Below, piece after piece: positions 835-4,266 of a DNA stretch of 4,404 nt. The notes beneath the pieces are model-generated. The model did not search any database and had not been told where the DNA came from. It saw only the letters and a list, made by a program, of their open reading frames with translations. The stretch's first letter is position 1; the number at the start of each line of letters is the position of its first letter. The position numbers and the translations under genes were made by a program. Where the stretch lies: the IMG/VR virus record IMGVR_UViG_2690316231_000014, one strand, 5' to 3'. This DNA comes from a virus (Duplodnaviria > Heunggongvirae > Uroviricota > Caudoviricetes).

Positions 835-920
835 CGAATTTCTCCCGTGTAGAGGAACAGAGTTAAAAAGCCGGAAGCGGAATCAAATCACAGGATGACC
901 ATCTGCCAGTGGCAGGTCAT

Positions 921-947
921 AAAAAAAAGGCTGCGCAATGCGCAGCC
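921..947 (-). terminator. Rho-independent terminator for minus-strand transcription (8-bp GC-rich stem, 3-nt loop, U8 tract)
   Basis: Forward 929-947 is GGCTGCGCAATGCGCAGCC, a perfect 8-bp stem (GGCTGCGC/GCGCAGCC) with a 3-nt loop. On the minus strand it is followed immediately by eight T (forward A8 at 921-928). There is no T-run after the hairpin on the plus strand, so it is unidirectional. Confidence 0.7.
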
Positions 948-1376
948 AGAACTCACAAGGAAAATGATAAAAGGAATAACACTAGTGATGTACGCATGGC
1001 GCCTCCCGCTAAGTTCTGCAATGATCAAACAGAACTCGCTACGTGCCCTTAAAACTCGATCATTTAGCCCCTCCAAGGAGGATTCACCATGCGGTTGATT
1101 TTTTAATAAACAGTAAACAAAAAAGTCAAGAATTATTCATTCTGTTCTTTCATCATCGGCCACAGCAATACCACAATGCCGCAGACCAGAGCGCCATCAG
1201 TCAGTACCAACATTATCCTGCTGGTGAAATCCATCATCACCATCACTAAAAGCAGGATCACAACAGCAAGCAGACACAGTTTATAAAACAATGTTCAGAA
1301 AACGCATTCAGCATGCCTAAGGTTCTATTCCTACGAATAGCCAACTTGCAACTTAAAATATTATTTATGCAGCCAA

Positions 1377-2135
1377 TTAAATTCTGGTCCTTACAATATC
1401 AACCTGAAGATTCTTATCTTGTGCTGATTGATAAATGACAAACCTTTTACTACCTGCATTGAAAGAAGTAGACAAAACCAGACAATTATCATAACGAGCA
1501 AGAACATAATACCAACCATCATTATAATTAATCATTTCATATTCTTTCTTAAACTGTGGTTTGTAATATCCTGTCAGAAATGAAAAAAGCCAAAAATATG
1601 CCACAAAAGCAATCATCACAATCTCAAAAAAATGTTTTTTTATAAATGGCTTATCATAGAAGCATGATACCGATAAAAATCGCCCATAAGATCTTATCGA
1701 AATTGTAACCGCCAGCGCAATCGCTGCTGACAGTAGCAAAAGAGGTACCTGAATCTTCTGTCTCAATATAGAAAACTCAATAATTGCCGGCACAAACAAT
1801 AATTCCACAGCAAAATAAAGGCGAAATACATTTAGCTCTTGCATAGAATGTTTTCTTTTCACTGCGAAAAAGAATACAACACCAATACCCCAACCGATAA
1901 GAAATATAGCAATGACGATAACTGCAAAAAATAAACTTCTGGCAACATCATCAACACCTGCACCTACAATCCACCATGGGAAGCCGTAGTAAAAAGAAGT
2001 ACCCCATCCATAGAAATAAGCACTCCCCCATCCAAGGCATCCCATGTAGGCAATAAAAAGTGAAGAACTCCTGAGCAGCGCACCATCCTTCATAACCACC
2101 CCAATACAAGATGATAACATTGGCTTACAACTCAT
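1377..2135 (-). CDS. Hypothetical multi-pass inner-membrane protein with a ~60-aa hydrophilic C-terminal domain; AT-rich cargo (moron) gene of unrecognised family. Start uncertain: ATG 2135, or ATG 2093 preceded by GGGGTGG
   Basis: A 252-codon ORF on the same strand as Q, about 160 nt downstream of the pR'-like promoter. No competing ORF of 60 aa or more is reported on either strand across this 759 bp despite its AT-richness. By eye there are 5-6 hydrophobic segments (GWGSAYFYGWGTSFYYGFPWW, LFFAVIVIAIFLIGWGIGVVFFFAV, VFRLYFAVELLFVPAIIEF, VPLLLLSAAIALAVTISI, FFEIVMIAFVAYFWLFSFLTGYY) and then a polar C-terminal tail. Hand-counted G+C in sampled 60-nt blocks is 25-37%, against about 50% in Q. 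The first ATG has no Shine-Dalgarno. Confidence 0.6.
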   Translation of the reverse strand: MSCKPMLSSCIGVVMKDGALLRSSSLFIAYMGCLGWGSAYFYGWGTSFYYGFPWWIVGAGVDDVARSLFFAVIVIAIFLIGWGIGVVFFFAVKRKHSMQELNVFRLYFAVELLFVPAIIEFSILRQKIQVPLLLLSAAIALAVTISIRSYGRFLSVSCFYDKPFIKKHFFEIVMIAFVAYFWLFSFLTGYYKPQFKKEYEMINYNDGWYYVLARYDNCLVLSTSFNAGSKRFVIYQSAQDKNLQVDIVRTRI

Positions 2136-2279
2136 AACAAAAGCAATTCAATGCCGTCAAGAGGTTACAGGCTAAAAAAACTCTATTACATTGCAGTCAG
2201 CATGTTTACTACACAAATACAATTCAGAGCATAAAAACTACTCGGCGGCAGGTTATTGAGACTCATCAATGACATGTAA

Positions 2280-2335
2280 AAAACGCCCATTATTGGTGTC
2301 AAGTTTCCCCAAAGTTATTCAAAAAGTCAATATTA
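2280..2335 (-). promoter_or_regulatory. Lambda-like late promoter pR' with Q-utilisation (qut) region
   Basis: Directly after the Q stop the minus strand reads GATTGCCACGGATGGCAACATATTAACGGCATAATATTGACTTTTTGAATAACTTTGGGGAAACTTGACACCAATAATGGGCG. From memory this aligns with lambda pR'/qut. The -35 TTGACT is at forward 2330..2325, the spacer is 17 bp, and the -10 position reads GAAACT (2307..2302) where lambda has TAAATT. A -10-like AATAAT lies in the initial transcribed region, as in the lambda pause-inducing element. Confidence 0.55.
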
Positions 2336-2372: not shown

Positions 2373-2996
2373 CTAACGTGTGATCGCATTCAAAATGTTG
2401 TCTGCGATTGACTCTTCCTTGTGGCATTGCACAACCAGAGCGTCATACAGCGGCTTAACAGTGCGTGACCAGGTGGGTTGGGTAAGGTTTGGGATTAGCA
2501 TCGTCACAGCGCGATATGCGGCGCTTGCTGGCATTCTTGAATAACCGACGCCTTTACATCTTCCGCACTCTTTCTCAGCAACTATCCCCCACTGCTCTGT
2601 TTTGGCTATATCAACCGCACGGCCTGTACCGTGGCAATCTCGGCATCTTGCGCCCGGCGTAGCGGCACTACGGCAATAATCCGCATAAGCGAATGTTGCG
2701 AGCACTTGCAGTACCTTTGCCTTAGTATTTCCTTCAAGCTTTGCCACGCCACGGTATTTCCCCGATACCTTGTGTGCAAATTGCATCAGATAGTTGATAG
2801 CCTTTTGTTTGTCGTTCTGGCTGAGTTCGTGCTTACCACAGAATACAGCCATTCCGAATCCGGCTTGTGATTGCGCCATCCCCATAGCAGCCATCACATC
2901 AGTACCGGAAAGAGAGTCAGAAGCCGTGGCCCGTGGTGAGTCGCTCATCATCGGGCTTTTTGGCGAATGAAATTTAGCTATGCTTTCGAGTCTCAT
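2373..2996 (-). CDS. Q: Late-gene antiterminator Q (lambda type)
   Basis: Complete 207-codon ORF, ATG 2996..2994 to TAG 2375..2373. The translation ([44 protein letters not shown] ... [18 protein letters not shown]) is, as recalled, near-identical to phage lambda Q. It carries the paired Cys cluster CRDCHG ... CGRCKG. The start overlaps the upstream stop (ATGA) and it is followed by pR'/qut. Confidence 0.95.
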
Positions 2997-3658
2997 GCGC
3001 CTTCTCCCTGTACCTGAATCAATGTGAGGTTTCCGCAGAACACTGCGCCAGTATCGATATACATCTGGTTGGCAAATTTGAGTGGTTTCACTGCTGGCGT
3101 ATGACCAAAGATGAACGTGTCCGCGCCTTTGATTTCTTTCACGATCCCGTCTTGTGAGTTGCTGATTCGTTCGCGGTTCCAGATTACCTGCTGATGATCA
3201 ACTGGCTTTCCAAACTCGTATTTATCACAAGGATAATCGGCGTGGCAGATGACATATTTTTTTCCTTTACTCACCAGTTCGATGATTAACGGAAGTTCAT
3301 CTGCTTTATGGGCAAGAGCTTTAGCCAGAATTTCTTTGTCGTAATCGAGATTAAAGAACCAGCCACCGCCATTAAGCAGCCAGTGATTGACGTTTCCACG
3401 CTCTGATAAGCCATCAATCATCATGTGCTCATGGTTTCCACGTACAGCTCTGAACCAGGGGAATGTGATTAATTCCAGGCATTCTACGTTCTCTGTACCG
3501 CGATCAACCAAATCGCCCACCGAGATAAGCAGGTCTTTTTTGGTGTCGAATCCTATCGTCTCCAGTTTTTTCATCAGGTTCGTGTAGCATCCGTGCAGAT
3601 CGCCAACTACCCAAATATTTCGGTATTTGCTGCCATCAATTCTTTCGTAGATATTCAT
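2993..3658 (-). CDS. Serine/threonine protein phosphatase, PPP-family metallophosphatase (lambda orf221/NinI-like)
   Basis: Complete 221-codon ORF. The PPP-family signature motifs are read directly: GDLHG, GDLVDRG, RGNHE. Most of the protein ([18 protein letters not shown] ... [26 protein letters not shown]) matches lambda protein phosphatase as I recall it, with a divergent first few residues. ATGA overlaps occur at both ends (with ninG at 3655-3658 and with Q at 2993-2996). Confidence 0.95.
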
Positions 3659-4258
3659 GCAACCTCACTTCTGCTGTTTCGCAGTTTTTTAAGTTTCTGT
3701 TGATACTCCGCCTTGATGGCCCTGCACTCTTCGACAGTCCAGCGATAGCGGTTATGGTTTGATTCGATTTCCTCTACTGCTTCCTGCCCGATGCGGCTAA
3801 TCAGTTCGACGCGATACGGAACGAGATTTCCGCTTTTGTGCTGGTTGCACACCACGCATTGCTTGTGAATATTGCGTTCATCAAATCGGAGTTGAGGCGC
3901 CGCAGCAGTTGTCCGGTAATGTCCGGCATCCCACTGAGCAGACGTGAGCGTTCCGCACGAGATACATGGTAAGTCGCGGTCTCTTTCTCTGATGAAGGCG
4001 TTTACGGCTTGTTGGGCTTGTTTAATCCAGTAACTGCGGGGCTTTAAGGCGAGTTTTCGAATCTTAAGTTTATCTTTCTGTTTCTGCTCCTCTCGTCGTC
4101 GTTTCTTCTCTGCTGCCTTTTCCGCTTTTTCGCGTTCTTTGCTTCGTCGTTCGAGTGCTATCTTGGTTCCACACTCTGGAGAGCACCACCACTGATTGGC
4201 GAATGCAGGGTGAAACCATTCCCGACATTCATCGTTTTTACATCGTCTTCGCGCTGGT

Positions 4259-4266
<8 letters not shown>
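3655..4266 (-). CDS. ninG: NinG / Rap recombination-associated endonuclease (lambda NinG-like)
   Basis: Complete 203-codon ORF, ATG 4266..4264 to TGA 3657..3655. The translation ([105 protein letters not shown] ... CVVCNQHK) is, as recalled, closely similar to lambda NinG (Rap) and shows its characteristic Cys clusters. The start overlaps the stop of the ninF-like frame (ATGGCTAA). Confidence 0.92.

What the first reader, a model, noticed from the sequence alone, without database searches (positions are those of the whole stretch)
1377..2135. Unrecognised AT-rich multi-pass membrane protein gene in the stx-equivalent cargo slot downstream of Q/pR'
The interval between Q/pR' and the NanS-p-like esterase gene is where Stx phages carry stxAB, and it is a classic moron site. 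Here it holds a single 252-codon ORF on the late strand. Its product looks like 5-6 transmembrane helices, including a Gly/aromatic-rich segment GWGSAYFYGWGTSFYYGFPWW, followed by a ~60-residue polar C-terminal domain (KPQFKKEYEMINYNDGWYYVLARYDNCLVLSTSFNAGSKRFVIYQSAQDKNLQVDIVRTRI). I cannot assign it to any family. Its composition (about 25-37% G+C in sampled blocks against about 50% in the flanking phage genes) and F/Y/I/K-rich codon usage indicate foreign origin. Cargo at this position is typically lysogenic conversion or phage exclusion/defence, so this is a candidate single-gene membrane effector. Its placement behind pR' suggests expression coupled to Q, or constitutive expression if no tR' exists. 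The start is ambiguous: ATG 2135 has no Shine-Dalgarno, while ATG 2093 (codon 15) is preceded by GGGGTGG.
Basis: partly seen in the sequence, partly recalled or inferred. Interest (0 to 1): 0.8.

Follow-up and report, generated by a model that had tools for sequence, protein, structure and literature searches.

The report
Uncharacterised prophage membrane protein in stx slot
The ORF is a real, strongly conserved gene for a five-helix inner-membrane protein carried as cargo where Shiga-toxin phages carry stx, but it belongs to an already catalogued family of unknown function (Pfam PF27470 'TfpB'; identical in phage 434; Salmonella STM1630), so it is a known unknown, not a new discovery.

Summary
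The ORF (1377-2135, minus strand) is real. The true start is almost certainly ATG 2093 (238 aa, SD GGGGTGG), because the Met there is invariant across homologues. The gene is AT-rich (36% GC) and under strong purifying selection (dN/dS 0.05-0.08). It is predicted (AF2 pLDDT 84) to have five TM helices and a C-terminal five-stranded beta-domain, most likely N-in/C-out.

It is not unrecognised. It matches PHROG 1521 (E 2e-154), carries the precomputed Pfam family PF27470 'TfpB', is 100% identical to phage 434 gene 68, and matches DNA in about 24% of complete E. coli genomes. Relatives sit on the Shigella virulence plasmid and in Salmonella (STM1630, verified by a published primer), and as lone chromosomal genes in Pasteurellaceae and Neisseriaceae. 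No function is known; there is no PADLOC hit and no fold match.

It is a moron lying between lambda-type Q/pR' and a DUF3927 gene, an STnc100/PasD-like sRNA with a terminator, and the nanS-p esterase. Stx phages hold stxAB in this slot. The tR' hairpin that precedes the gene in phage 434 is broken here, so pR' may read into the gene without Q.

I favour a non-enzymatic, periplasm-facing envelope factor for lysogenic conversion or host adaptation. Phage exclusion remains a live rival.

The parts
1377..2093 (-). Coding sequence of the 238-aa inner-membrane protein (PF27470 'TfpB' / PHROG 1521 family); stop codon TAA at 1379..1377
   Evidence: ORF. Invariant Met at this start and 237-238-aa homologues. 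PHROG 1521 E 2e-154. dN/dS 0.05-0.08. AF2 model pLDDT 84.
2094..2135 (-). In-frame upstream extension (ATG 2135, ATG 2120), probably 5' UTR and not translated; contains the Shine-Dalgarno GGGGTGG at 2102..2096
   Evidence: The extension is absent from or unconserved in homologues. The sequence is read directly. PGAP and the 434 annotators used ATG 2120.
2111..2140 (-). Sigma-70-like site TTGTTA-18-TATCAT with TG upstream; a possible promoter of the gene's own (weak evidence)
   Evidence: Promoter scan, but the number of such sites in the region is no more than chance (3 found, 4.7 expected). The sequence is 100% conserved between the window and phage 434.
2229..2256 (-). Degenerate tR'-like hairpin, which also marks the left boundary of the cargo module shared with phage 434
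   Evidence: In the alignment with 434, homology begins here and the window lacks 4 nt of the stem. Fold energy is -4.6 kcal/mol (z -0.95) here against -13.3 (z -4.3) in 434. It is not called as a terminator.
2302..2330 (-). Late promoter pR' (-35 TTGACT at 2330..2325; -10 GAAACT at 2307..2302) with a lambda-type Q-binding region; start site near 2295
   Evidence: Near-identity to lambda from the end of Q through pR', ending about +10. The lambda -10 is TAAATT.
2373..2996 (-). Lambda-type antiterminator Q gene
   Evidence: Pfam Antiterm 4e-58. PGAP annotation.
1133..1291 (-). 52-aa DUF3927 / TciB-like small membrane protein gene, co-resident in the Escherichia module only
   Evidence: Pfam DUF3927 3.4e-14. 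PHROG 1470 2.5e-17. Absent next to the Salmonella, Shigella-plasmid, Neisseria and Avibacterium homologues.
918..1122 (-). STnc100/PasD-like sRNA element ending in a strong intrinsic terminator (947..929); overlaps the mechanical '62-aa ORF' at 1076..888
   Evidence: Rfam RF02076, 41.4 bits (gathering score 47), E 1e-6, full model length. Terminator called, -16.7 kcal/mol, z -4.6. PasD lies directly upstream of the esterase gene in phage 2B8.
1..834 (-). 5' part of the NanS-p-type sialate O-acetylesterase gene (right boundary of the slot)
   Evidence: Pfam DUF1737 + SASA. Homology to the Stx-phage yjhS gene begins at about window 827.

Best explanation
What it is (shown): a 238-codon gene (ATG 2093 to stop at 1377) encoding an inner-membrane protein of the small PF27470 'TfpB' / PHROG 1521 family. 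The protein has five transmembrane helices and a ~55-residue C-terminal beta-domain, most likely N-in/C-out.

Genetic status (shown): it is a moron, meaning AT-rich, horizontally mobile, single-gene cargo placed between the late promoter/terminator region of a lambdoid prophage and an STnc100/PasD-like sRNA plus the nanS-p esterase. This is the slot where Stx phages carry stxAB.

Expression (inferred): on induction it is transcribed by Q-modified RNA polymerase from pR' together with the lysis genes. In this lambda-Q variant the tR' hairpin upstream of the gene is broken, so constitutive pR' transcription can probably also read into it in the lysogen and stop at the strong terminator at 947..929. 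This is probably damped by H-NS, as shown for the Salmonella orthologue.

Function (inferred, moderate-to-low confidence): a non-enzymatic, periplasm-facing envelope protein that changes a property of the lysogen's cell envelope for the bacterium's benefit in an animal host (lysogenic conversion or host adaptation). I do not think it is a part of the phage life cycle or a dedicated anti-phage system. It would act by binding or gating through its conserved aromatic/Gly-rich TM1-loop-TM2 face and the adjoining beta-domain.
For: Identity:
- PHROG 1521 E 2e-154.
- PF27470 precomputed on all homologues and named TfpB.
- 100% identical in phage 434.
- Matching DNA in 1285 of 5426 complete E. coli genomes.

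Real gene: dN/dS 0.05-0.08.

Structure and topology:
- AF2 pLDDT 84, pTM 0.79.
- K+R count is 7.0 on the predicted inside against 3.1 outside, across 22 diverse members.

Non-enzymatic: across the whole family only G175 is invariant, and A15, A25, Y26, G37 and P102 are nearly invariant. No conserved His, Asp, Glu, Ser, Cys or Lys is present.

Moron status:
- GC 0.29-0.39 against about 0.5 in the flanks.
- The same module follows two unrelated Q genes.
- stx1AB occupies the slot in a Stx1a phage, and an STnc100/EcOnc27 sRNA lies just after stx2B.
- 434B lacks the gene yet forms plaques.

Function independent of phage:
- Lone gene among housekeeping genes in Neisseria, Avibacterium and Mannheimia.
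- Present on Shigella pINV.
- DUF3927 is not co-inherited.

Host link: the family is confined to animal-mucosa Enterobacteriaceae, Pasteurellaceae and Neisseriaceae. For Salmonella STM1630, shown to be the orthologue by primer match:
- it lies between steB and sseJ and is H-NS-bound;
- it is expressed in SPI-2-inducing medium and in macrophages;
- it clusters with SPI-2 co-regulated genes;
- mutants were attenuated in calf and chick;
- deletion in strain 4/74 raised intramacrophage replication.

Regulation.
Against: - No experiment addresses the E. coli or phage protein.
- The Salmonella phenotypes are modest and partly inconsistent: attenuated in calf and chick, but higher replication in macrophages. 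The hypermotility seen in a screen was re-tested in a follow-up study, which does not list STM1630 among its altered-motility mutants (and that paper's abstract).
- The topology is only a positive-inside inference, and the first helix is weakly hydrophobic.
- The pR' -10 here (GAAACT) is weaker than lambda's, so lysogen expression may be low.
- Rho-dependent termination or H-NS silencing could block read-through.
- Absence from PADLOC (version of 2023) does not exclude a new defence function.
- Prophage morons in lambdoid phages often are exclusion genes.
Confidence: 0.45

Rival explanations
1. Superinfection exclusion or anti-phage defence. The inner-membrane protein, through its periplasmic face, blocks genome entry of other phages (as T4 Imm, P22 SieA or HK97 gp15 do) or triggers membrane-level abortive infection.
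For: The position is a classic moron slot of a lambdoid prophage. It is a single-gene membrane protein with a periplasm-facing conserved surface. It is dispensable for the phage. There is high allelic diversity (39-97% identity) within E. coli, as expected of arms-race genes. Possible expression in the lysogen.
Against: No PADLOC hit even at E = 10, and no PHROG functional category. Homologues outside phages are stable lone genes among housekeeping genes in Pasteurellaceae and Neisseriaceae, or among virulence genes in Salmonella and Shigella, not in defence islands. Selection is strongly purifying, not diversifying. STM1630 is regulated with SPI-2, not with phage functions.
Confidence: 0.25
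2. Orphan immunity or resistance protein against a membrane-acting toxin (pore-forming colicin or microcin, CDI/T6SS membrane effector, or a host antimicrobial peptide), acting by intramembrane binding.
For: It is a small multi-pass inner-membrane protein without catalytic residues. It is AT-rich and mobile as a single gene on prophages and plasmids. The neighbouring gene belongs to a PHROG annotated 'TciB-like inhibition of cell division or resistance to colicin'. The family is restricted to dense mucosal communities.
Against: No Pfam, NCBIfam or PDB similarity to any colicin or microcin immunity family. No toxin gene is nearby in any context examined. At 238 aa with a folded beta-domain it is larger than known pore-former immunity proteins (my knowledge: about 80-180 aa).
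Confidence: 0.12
3. Accessory lysis function (holin, antiholin or lysis-timing factor) of the late operon.
For: It lies in the late transcription unit upstream of the lysis cassette and would be co-transcribed with it after Q action.
Against: A separate class II holin, an endolysin and spanins are present downstream. With five TM helices plus a beta-domain and 238 aa, it is unlike holins. Homologues occur where there is no phage or lysis cassette. 434B lyses without it.
Confidence: 0.05
4. Decaying or non-functional ORF kept only as AT-rich filler.
For: A few frameshifted copies exist (P0076, P0093, P0095, P0104). The Shigella plasmid copy carries changes in otherwise invariant motif positions. 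The STM1630 promoter is inactivated in ST313.
Against: dN/dS is 0.05-0.08 over dS 0.2-0.8. There are hundreds of intact 237-238-aa copies in several genera. The AF2 fold is confident.
Confidence: 0.02

Closest known systems
Phage 434 gene CPT_434_68 (UMO75332.1, 'putative membrane protein') and E. coli WP_001302581.1
   Same: 100% amino-acid identity. The downstream module is the same (DUF3927 gene, sRNA-like element with terminator, SASA esterase).
   Different: In 434 the gene follows a Q82-type Q and an intact tR' hairpin. Here it follows a lambda-type Q/pR' and the hairpin has lost 4 nt. The annotated start (M6) differs from the family-supported start (M15).
Salmonella Typhimurium STM1630 (SL1560), between steB and sseJ
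   Same: Same family and length (238 aa, 46% identity, same architecture). It is AT-rich and H-NS-bound. It is the only member with experimental data: SPI-2/macrophage expression, attenuation in calf and chick, and altered intramacrophage replication.
   Different: It is chromosomal, not in a prophage late operon, and has its own mapped promoter about 210 nt upstream. The upstream regions are not homologous. No DUF3927 neighbour.
Pfam PF27470 'TfpB' / PHROG 1521
   Same: The window protein is a full-length, high-scoring member.
   Different: Neither entry gives a function. PF27470 is newer than the Pfam copy I could scan, so I could not read its description. From memory, the name recalls the tfpB ORF of the Moraxella pilin inversion region. 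I could not verify that link, and no pilin or invertase genes neighbour the members I examined. The 'TfpB' in the Acinetobacter papers is a PilB-like ATPase and is unrelated.
Inner-membrane superinfection-exclusion morons (HK97 gp15, T4 Imm, P22 SieA) and lambda RexB
   Same: Prophage- or phage-encoded inner-membrane proteins that are dispensable for growth and act at the envelope. The genetic logic (moron) is similar.
   Different: No sequence, profile or fold similarity was detected. TM number and domain layout differ. This is a 'may work like' comparison, not membership.
stxAB cargo of Stx phages
   Same: Occupies the same slot: downstream of Q/pR'/tR' and upstream of an STnc100-family sRNA and nanS-p.
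   Different: The products are unrelated: a secreted AB5 toxin against an inner-membrane protein.

Membership tests
PF27470 'TfpB' / PHROG 1521 (uncharacterised membrane protein family) | Significant full-length profile match | tested here: met
   PHROG 1521 E 2.1e-154, profile positions 1-222 of 222. PF27470 is precomputed for the identical protein P0001 and all homologues. The local Pfam copy lacks this model.
PF27470 'TfpB' / PHROG 1521 (uncharacterised membrane protein family) | Shared architecture: about 235-250 aa, N-terminal AY..GWG.AY.YGWG..YYG.PWW motif, five helices, G175 junction, C-terminal beta-domain | tested here: met
   Alignments A1, A2 and A4. AF2 model. Distant members cover profile positions about 8-235.
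Known anti-phage defence systems (PADLOC-DB v2) | HMM match to any defence-system protein | tested here: not met
   0 families at E <= 10 for this protein and for the DUF3927 neighbour.
Known anti-phage defence systems (PADLOC-DB v2) | Location in defence islands or next to defence genes | tested here: not met
   Neighbours are phage late genes, virulence genes, IS elements or housekeeping genes. The sample is small.
Moron (Hendrix-type extra gene in a lambdoid genome) | Deviant base composition and presence/absence between otherwise syntenic phages | tested here: met
   GC 0.29-0.39 against about 0.5. Absent from lambda, where orf-64 occupies the space. Replaced by stx1AB in a Stx1a phage. 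The same module follows two different Q types.
Moron (Hendrix-type extra gene in a lambdoid genome) | Own promoter and terminator allowing expression from the repressed prophage | tested here: inconclusive
   A strong terminator lies downstream (929-947). Promoter-like sites are no more frequent than chance. Read-through from pR' is possible because the tR' hairpin is broken. No transcript data.
Moron (Hendrix-type extra gene in a lambdoid genome) | Dispensable for lytic growth | tested here: met
   The 434B replacement region (434 coordinates 41277-45846) includes the gene, and 434B forms plaques.
Holins / lysis proteins | Small (under about 150 aa), 1-4 TM, adjacent to the endolysin gene, no extra folded domain | tested here: not met
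   238 aa, five TM helices plus a beta-domain. A separate class II holin and a lysozyme lie beyond the esterase gene.
Superinfection-exclusion proteins (Imm, SieA, gp15) and RexB | Sequence or fold homology | tested here: not met
   No Pfam, PHROG-function, PDB or BFVD similarity.
Superinfection-exclusion proteins (Imm, SieA, gp15) and RexB | Blocks infection by other phages when expressed | not testable with these tools
   Needs plating assays.
Pore-forming colicin/microcin immunity proteins | Profile match to an immunity family, or a linked toxin gene | tested here: not met
   No Pfam or NCBIfam hit. No toxin genes in the neighbourhoods examined.

The most novel reading that the evidence does not exclude
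The protein is the founding example of a mechanistically new, single-gene, prophage-borne inner-membrane effector with a fold unlike any solved structure. It alternates with stx in the late-operon cargo slot of EHEC prophages. It would either exclude competing phages or remodel the envelope in the host, and it would be expressed in lysogens through a decayed tR'. The same family would then explain the orphan genes on the Shigella virulence plasmid and next to sseJ in Salmonella.
Probability: 0.3. Interest if true: 0.65.

Novelty: already known. Interest (0 to 1): 0.4.

Why it matters
The gene is carried by the classic phage 434, and matching DNA is found in roughly a quarter of complete E. coli genomes; O157:H7 strains can hold both forms of the gene's leader region. 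Relatives are on the Shigella invasion plasmid and in the Salmonella SPI-2 co-regulated set. It is under strong purifying selection and has no known function or fold relative.

It occupies the position that gives stx its induction-coupled expression. Here a broken tR' may uncouple expression from Q. Working out its function would fill a recurrent gap in the annotation of enteric pathogen mobile elements, and would show what non-Stx lambdoid prophages deliver from this slot.

As a sequence finding it is not new. The value lies in a well-defined, testable known unknown.

Tried and rejected
- Local Pfam-A, NCBIfam and PADLOC scans gave only noise or nothing. The Pfam miss occurs because PF27470 is newer than the local copy.
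- The first AF2 run, with 30 close homologues, was poor (pLDDT 58). The diverse alignment fixed this.
- Tracing the name 'TfpB': literature hits refer to chemistry, anaesthesia, type IVb pili, or the Acinetobacter PilB-like ATPase, all unrelated. A profile of the Neisseria/Pasteurellaceae subgroup found no named member. The Moraxella tfpB link, which I recall from memory, stays unverified.
- The search for related loci failed with the diverse alignment. With the closer alignment it returned only five loci. One was a Veillonella MAG contig with a 100% E. coli match, probably contamination.
- Homology of upstream regions between genera: none, so the mapped STM1630 promoter cannot be transferred to E. 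coli.
- A two-gene system with DUF3927: rejected, because the two genes co-occur only in the close Escherichia module.
- Lysis role and pseudogene status: rejected (see rivals).
- A promoter of the gene's own: the scan count is no more than chance, so this is left open.
- No tRNAs in the window.
Full report

Yes. The window is the late-regulatory region of a lambdoid prophage read on the minus strand:
- ninG (4266..3655)
- the ninI phosphatase (3658..2993)
- a lambda-type Q (2996..2373; Pfam Antiterm 4e-58)
- the ORF in question (2135..1377; 252 codons)
- a 52-aa DUF3927 ORF (1291..1133)
- the start of a DUF1737+SASA (NanS-p-type) esterase gene at 834

GC falls to 0.285-0.385 over the ORF, against 0.48-0.62 in the flanking genes. 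The CDS is 36% GC with GC3 of 30%. Hydropathy shows four strongly hydrophobic segments plus a Gly/aromatic-rich first helix.

**2. Where does the gene start?**

About 100 homologues were found, and nearly all full-length ones are 237-238 aa. In alignments the Met at codon 15 of the 252-aa ORF is invariant, while the 14 upstream codons have no counterpart. ATG 2093 is preceded by GGGGTGG (2102..2096). PGAP and the phage 434 annotators chose ATG 2120.

**3. Is it a working gene?**

Nei-Gojobori dN/dS is 0.057-0.084 among Escherichia alleles (dS 0.22-0.33) and 0.052-0.068 among Salmonella alleles (dS 0.60-0.77). A few frameshifted copies exist, but large clusters are intact: 545, 999, 2681, 441 and 281 member sequences.

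**4. What family is it?**

The local Pfam-A, NCBIfam and PADLOC scans gave nothing. PHROGs gave phrog_1521 (unknown function) at E 2e-154 over the whole profile. The big protein collection shows a precomputed Pfam family, PF27470, on every homologue, and the contig look-up names it 'TfpB'. That model is newer than the Pfam copy I could scan.

An exhaustive HMMER search of 1.84 billion representatives found only 72 clusters, 21 of them at E <= 1e-30, so the family is small. The named members come from:
- Enterobacteriaceae: E. coli, E. albertii, Shigella, Salmonella, Citrobacter, Cronobacter, Klebsiella, Enterobacter, Mangrovibacter, Yersinia
- Pasteurellaceae: Avibacterium, Gallibacterium, Mannheimia, Actinobacillus, Pasteurella
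- Neisseriaceae: N. dumasiana, N. arctica, N. animaloris, N. zoodegmatis, Conchiformibius, Uruburuella

Nearly all of these are bacteria of animal mucosae. No source gives a functional name. I could not trace the origin of the name 'TfpB'. The TfpB of the Acinetobacter papers is a PilB-like ATPase and is unrelated. A link to the tfpB ORF of the Moraxella pilin inversion region is only my recollection and was not verified.

**5. How common is it, and where?**

The DNA of 1300-2372 matches 1285 of 5426 complete E. coli genomes, 682 of them over at least 80% of its length. The protein is 100% identical to gene 68 of the classic phage 434 and 98% identical in phage 2B8. A 57%-identical copy is on the Shigella virulence plasmid, in 106 Shigella plasmid records including pWR501. 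A 39%-identical copy is on an IS-rich plasmid-like contig.

In Yersinia the gene again follows ninG and a Q gene of another family, Phage_antitermQ. In Salmonella it lies next to a 408-aa Sif+Lipase_GDSL gene, which is SseJ. In Neisseria arctica, N. animaloris, Avibacterium and Mannheimia it is a lone gene among housekeeping genes. No pilin, invertase or defence genes are nearby. The DUF3927 gene accompanies it only in the close Escherichia module. The membrane protein therefore works as a single-gene unit.

**6. The Salmonella orthologue has been studied.**

A published STM1630 deletion primer translates to NSSMLLAYLGGLGWG, which matches the Salmonella homologue. A published STM1630 promoter primer matches the locus exactly 210 nt upstream of the gene. 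STM1630 is a 717-bp 'putative membrane protein' gene next to sseJ.

According to Canals et al. 2019 (PMC6785131, S1 Text):
- the function of STM1630 is unknown, and it lies between steB and sseJ;
- it is absent from S. Typhi;
- it is H-NS-bound, which explains its apparent 'essentiality' in transposon libraries;
- it is expressed in SPI-2-inducing medium and inside macrophages in strain 4/74;
- it is silenced by two -10 SNPs in all ST313 strains tested;
- signature-tagged mutants were attenuated in calf and chick;
- a clean deletion in 4/74 increased intramacrophage fold replication.

It also appears in the gene set co-regulated with SPI-2 (PMC2639726). It was hypermotile in a deletion screen (swim 1.72x, swarm 1.62x). 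It was re-tested in a follow-up study, whose abstract does not list it among the mutants with altered motility.

**7. Structure.**

With a shallow alignment AF2 was poor (pLDDT 58). With 22 diverse family members it gave pLDDT 84.1 and pTM 0.79: helices 10-36, 47-79, 84-111, 116-137 and 149-181, then five beta-strands at 184-235.

Across those 22 sequences the loops predicted to be cytoplasmic in an N-in model carry 7.0 K+R on average, against 3.1 on the other side. That puts the conserved YYG(F)PWW loop and the C-terminal beta-domain in the periplasm.

Family-wide invariant or nearly invariant positions are only Gly, Ala, Tyr and Pro (G175; A15, A25, Y26, G37, P102). This argues against an enzyme and for a packing, binding or gating role.

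No solved or viral predicted structure matches:
- Foldseek against PDB has no hit at E <= 0.001, only weak SH3/Sm-like similarity for the beta-domain.
- BFVD gave nothing.

**8. The slot and its regulation.**

The window is nearly identical to lambda from the end of Q through pR'. The -35 is TTGACT at 2330..2325, and the -10 is GAAACT at 2307..2302 where lambda has TAAATT. Homology ends about 10 nt after the start site.

Phage 434 has an unrelated Q82-type Q. Its homology with the window begins exactly at a hairpin-plus-U-tract, annotated as a terminator in 434. From shortly after the hairpin it is 100% identical through the gene, the DUF3927 gene, a strong terminator and into the esterase gene.

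That hairpin folds at -13.3 kcal/mol (z -4.3) in 434. In the window a 4-nt loss leaves -4.6 kcal/mol (z -0.95), and no terminator is called between pR' and the gene. The next terminator is GGCTGCGCATTGCGCAGCC followed by eight T (T8), at 947..929 (-16.7 kcal/mol, z -4.6). Both leader variants are common, in 570 and about 630 genomes, and some O157:H7 strains hold both.

Inference: after induction the gene is transcribed by Q-modified polymerase with the lysis genes. In this variant it may also be transcribed from pR' in the lysogen, up to the terminator at 929.

A sigma-70-like site (TTGTTA-18-TATCAT) lies just upstream of ATG 2093, but such sites are no more frequent than chance. The 434B derivative lacks the whole region and is viable.

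**9. Equivalence to the stx slot.**

Homology of the esterase gene with Stx1a and Stx2a phages begins at about window 827. A Stx1a phage has stx1AB directly upstream of it.

The stretch 1122..918 gives a full-length, sub-threshold Rfam match to the sRNA STnc100 (41.4 bits against a gathering score of 47; E 1e-6) and ends in the strong terminator. Published work places an STnc100/EcOnc27 sRNA immediately after stx2B (PMC12711010). It also places PasD, a structural relative of STnc100, directly upstream of the esterase gene in phage 2B8 (PMC13192938).

The cargo slot is therefore bounded by tR' on one side and an STnc100-family sRNA plus nanS-p on the other. It holds either stxAB or this membrane protein gene with the DUF3927 gene.

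**10. Most likely function.**

Shown:
- it is a conserved inner-membrane protein;
- it is single-gene mobile cargo;
- it is dispensable for the phage;
- it is present outside phages.

Inferred:
- it has a periplasm-facing, non-enzymatic binding or gating role;
- it serves the bacterium in the animal host (lysogenic conversion or host adaptation), given the taxonomic range, the virulence-associated contexts in Shigella and Salmonella, and the STM1630 data.

Phage exclusion is the main rival. It fits the moron logic but has no positive evidence. An immunity-type role is a weaker rival. Lysis function and pseudogene status are rejected.

**11. Verdict.**

However, it is an already catalogued family member, identical to a phage 434 gene, and its function is still unknown. 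Interest is moderate (0.4).

Noticed in passing
window 918-1122 (minus strand), including terminator 929-947: The mechanical '62-aa ORF' (1076..888), annotated as a putative membrane protein in phage 434, overlaps a full-length sub-threshold match to the sRNA family STnc100 (41.4 bits, gathering score 47, E 1e-6) that ends in a strong terminator. It is probably a PasD/STnc100-family sRNA and not a protein gene. The same family lies just after stx2B in Stx2 phages.
   Followed up: partly
window 1133-1291 (minus strand): A 52-aa DUF3927 membrane protein (PHROG 1470, 'TciB-like inhibition of cell division or resistance to colicin'). It travels with the target gene only in the close Escherichia prophage module, is frameshifted in E. 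albertii L004 and is not detected in L005.
   Followed up: partly
window 2229-2256 and 2302-2330 (minus strand): The pR' -10 is GAAACT where lambda has TAAATT, and the tR'-type hairpin has lost 4 nt of its stem compared with phage 434. This exact leader is in 570 complete E. coli genomes and the intact-hairpin leader in about 630. Some O157:H7 strains carry both.
   Followed up: partly
L003 (JAIITD010000172.1, 'MAG: Veillonella sp.'): A 3-kb contig binned as Veillonella carries this E. coli prophage module at 100% protein identity. This is almost certainly a binning or contamination artefact.
   Followed up: no
L018 (Shigella flexneri pWR501, 135269-135985) and P0054: The Shigella virulence-plasmid copy (57% identity, 999-member cluster) has substitutions at two positions that are otherwise nearly invariant (GWG to GWV, AYFY to AYSY). 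This may indicate relaxed constraint or altered specificity.
   Followed up: no
L002 (phage 434) 2501-2590 and 2708-3667: Phage 434 keeps a 29-codon N-terminal fragment of a lambda-type Q, followed by an LpxR lipid A deacylase moron and then a Q82-type Q. This is a recombination scar next to the late-control region.
   Followed up: no
window 2993-2996 and 3655-3658: ninG/ninI and ninI/Q overlap by the 4-base ATGA motif (translational coupling), as in lambda.
   Followed up: no
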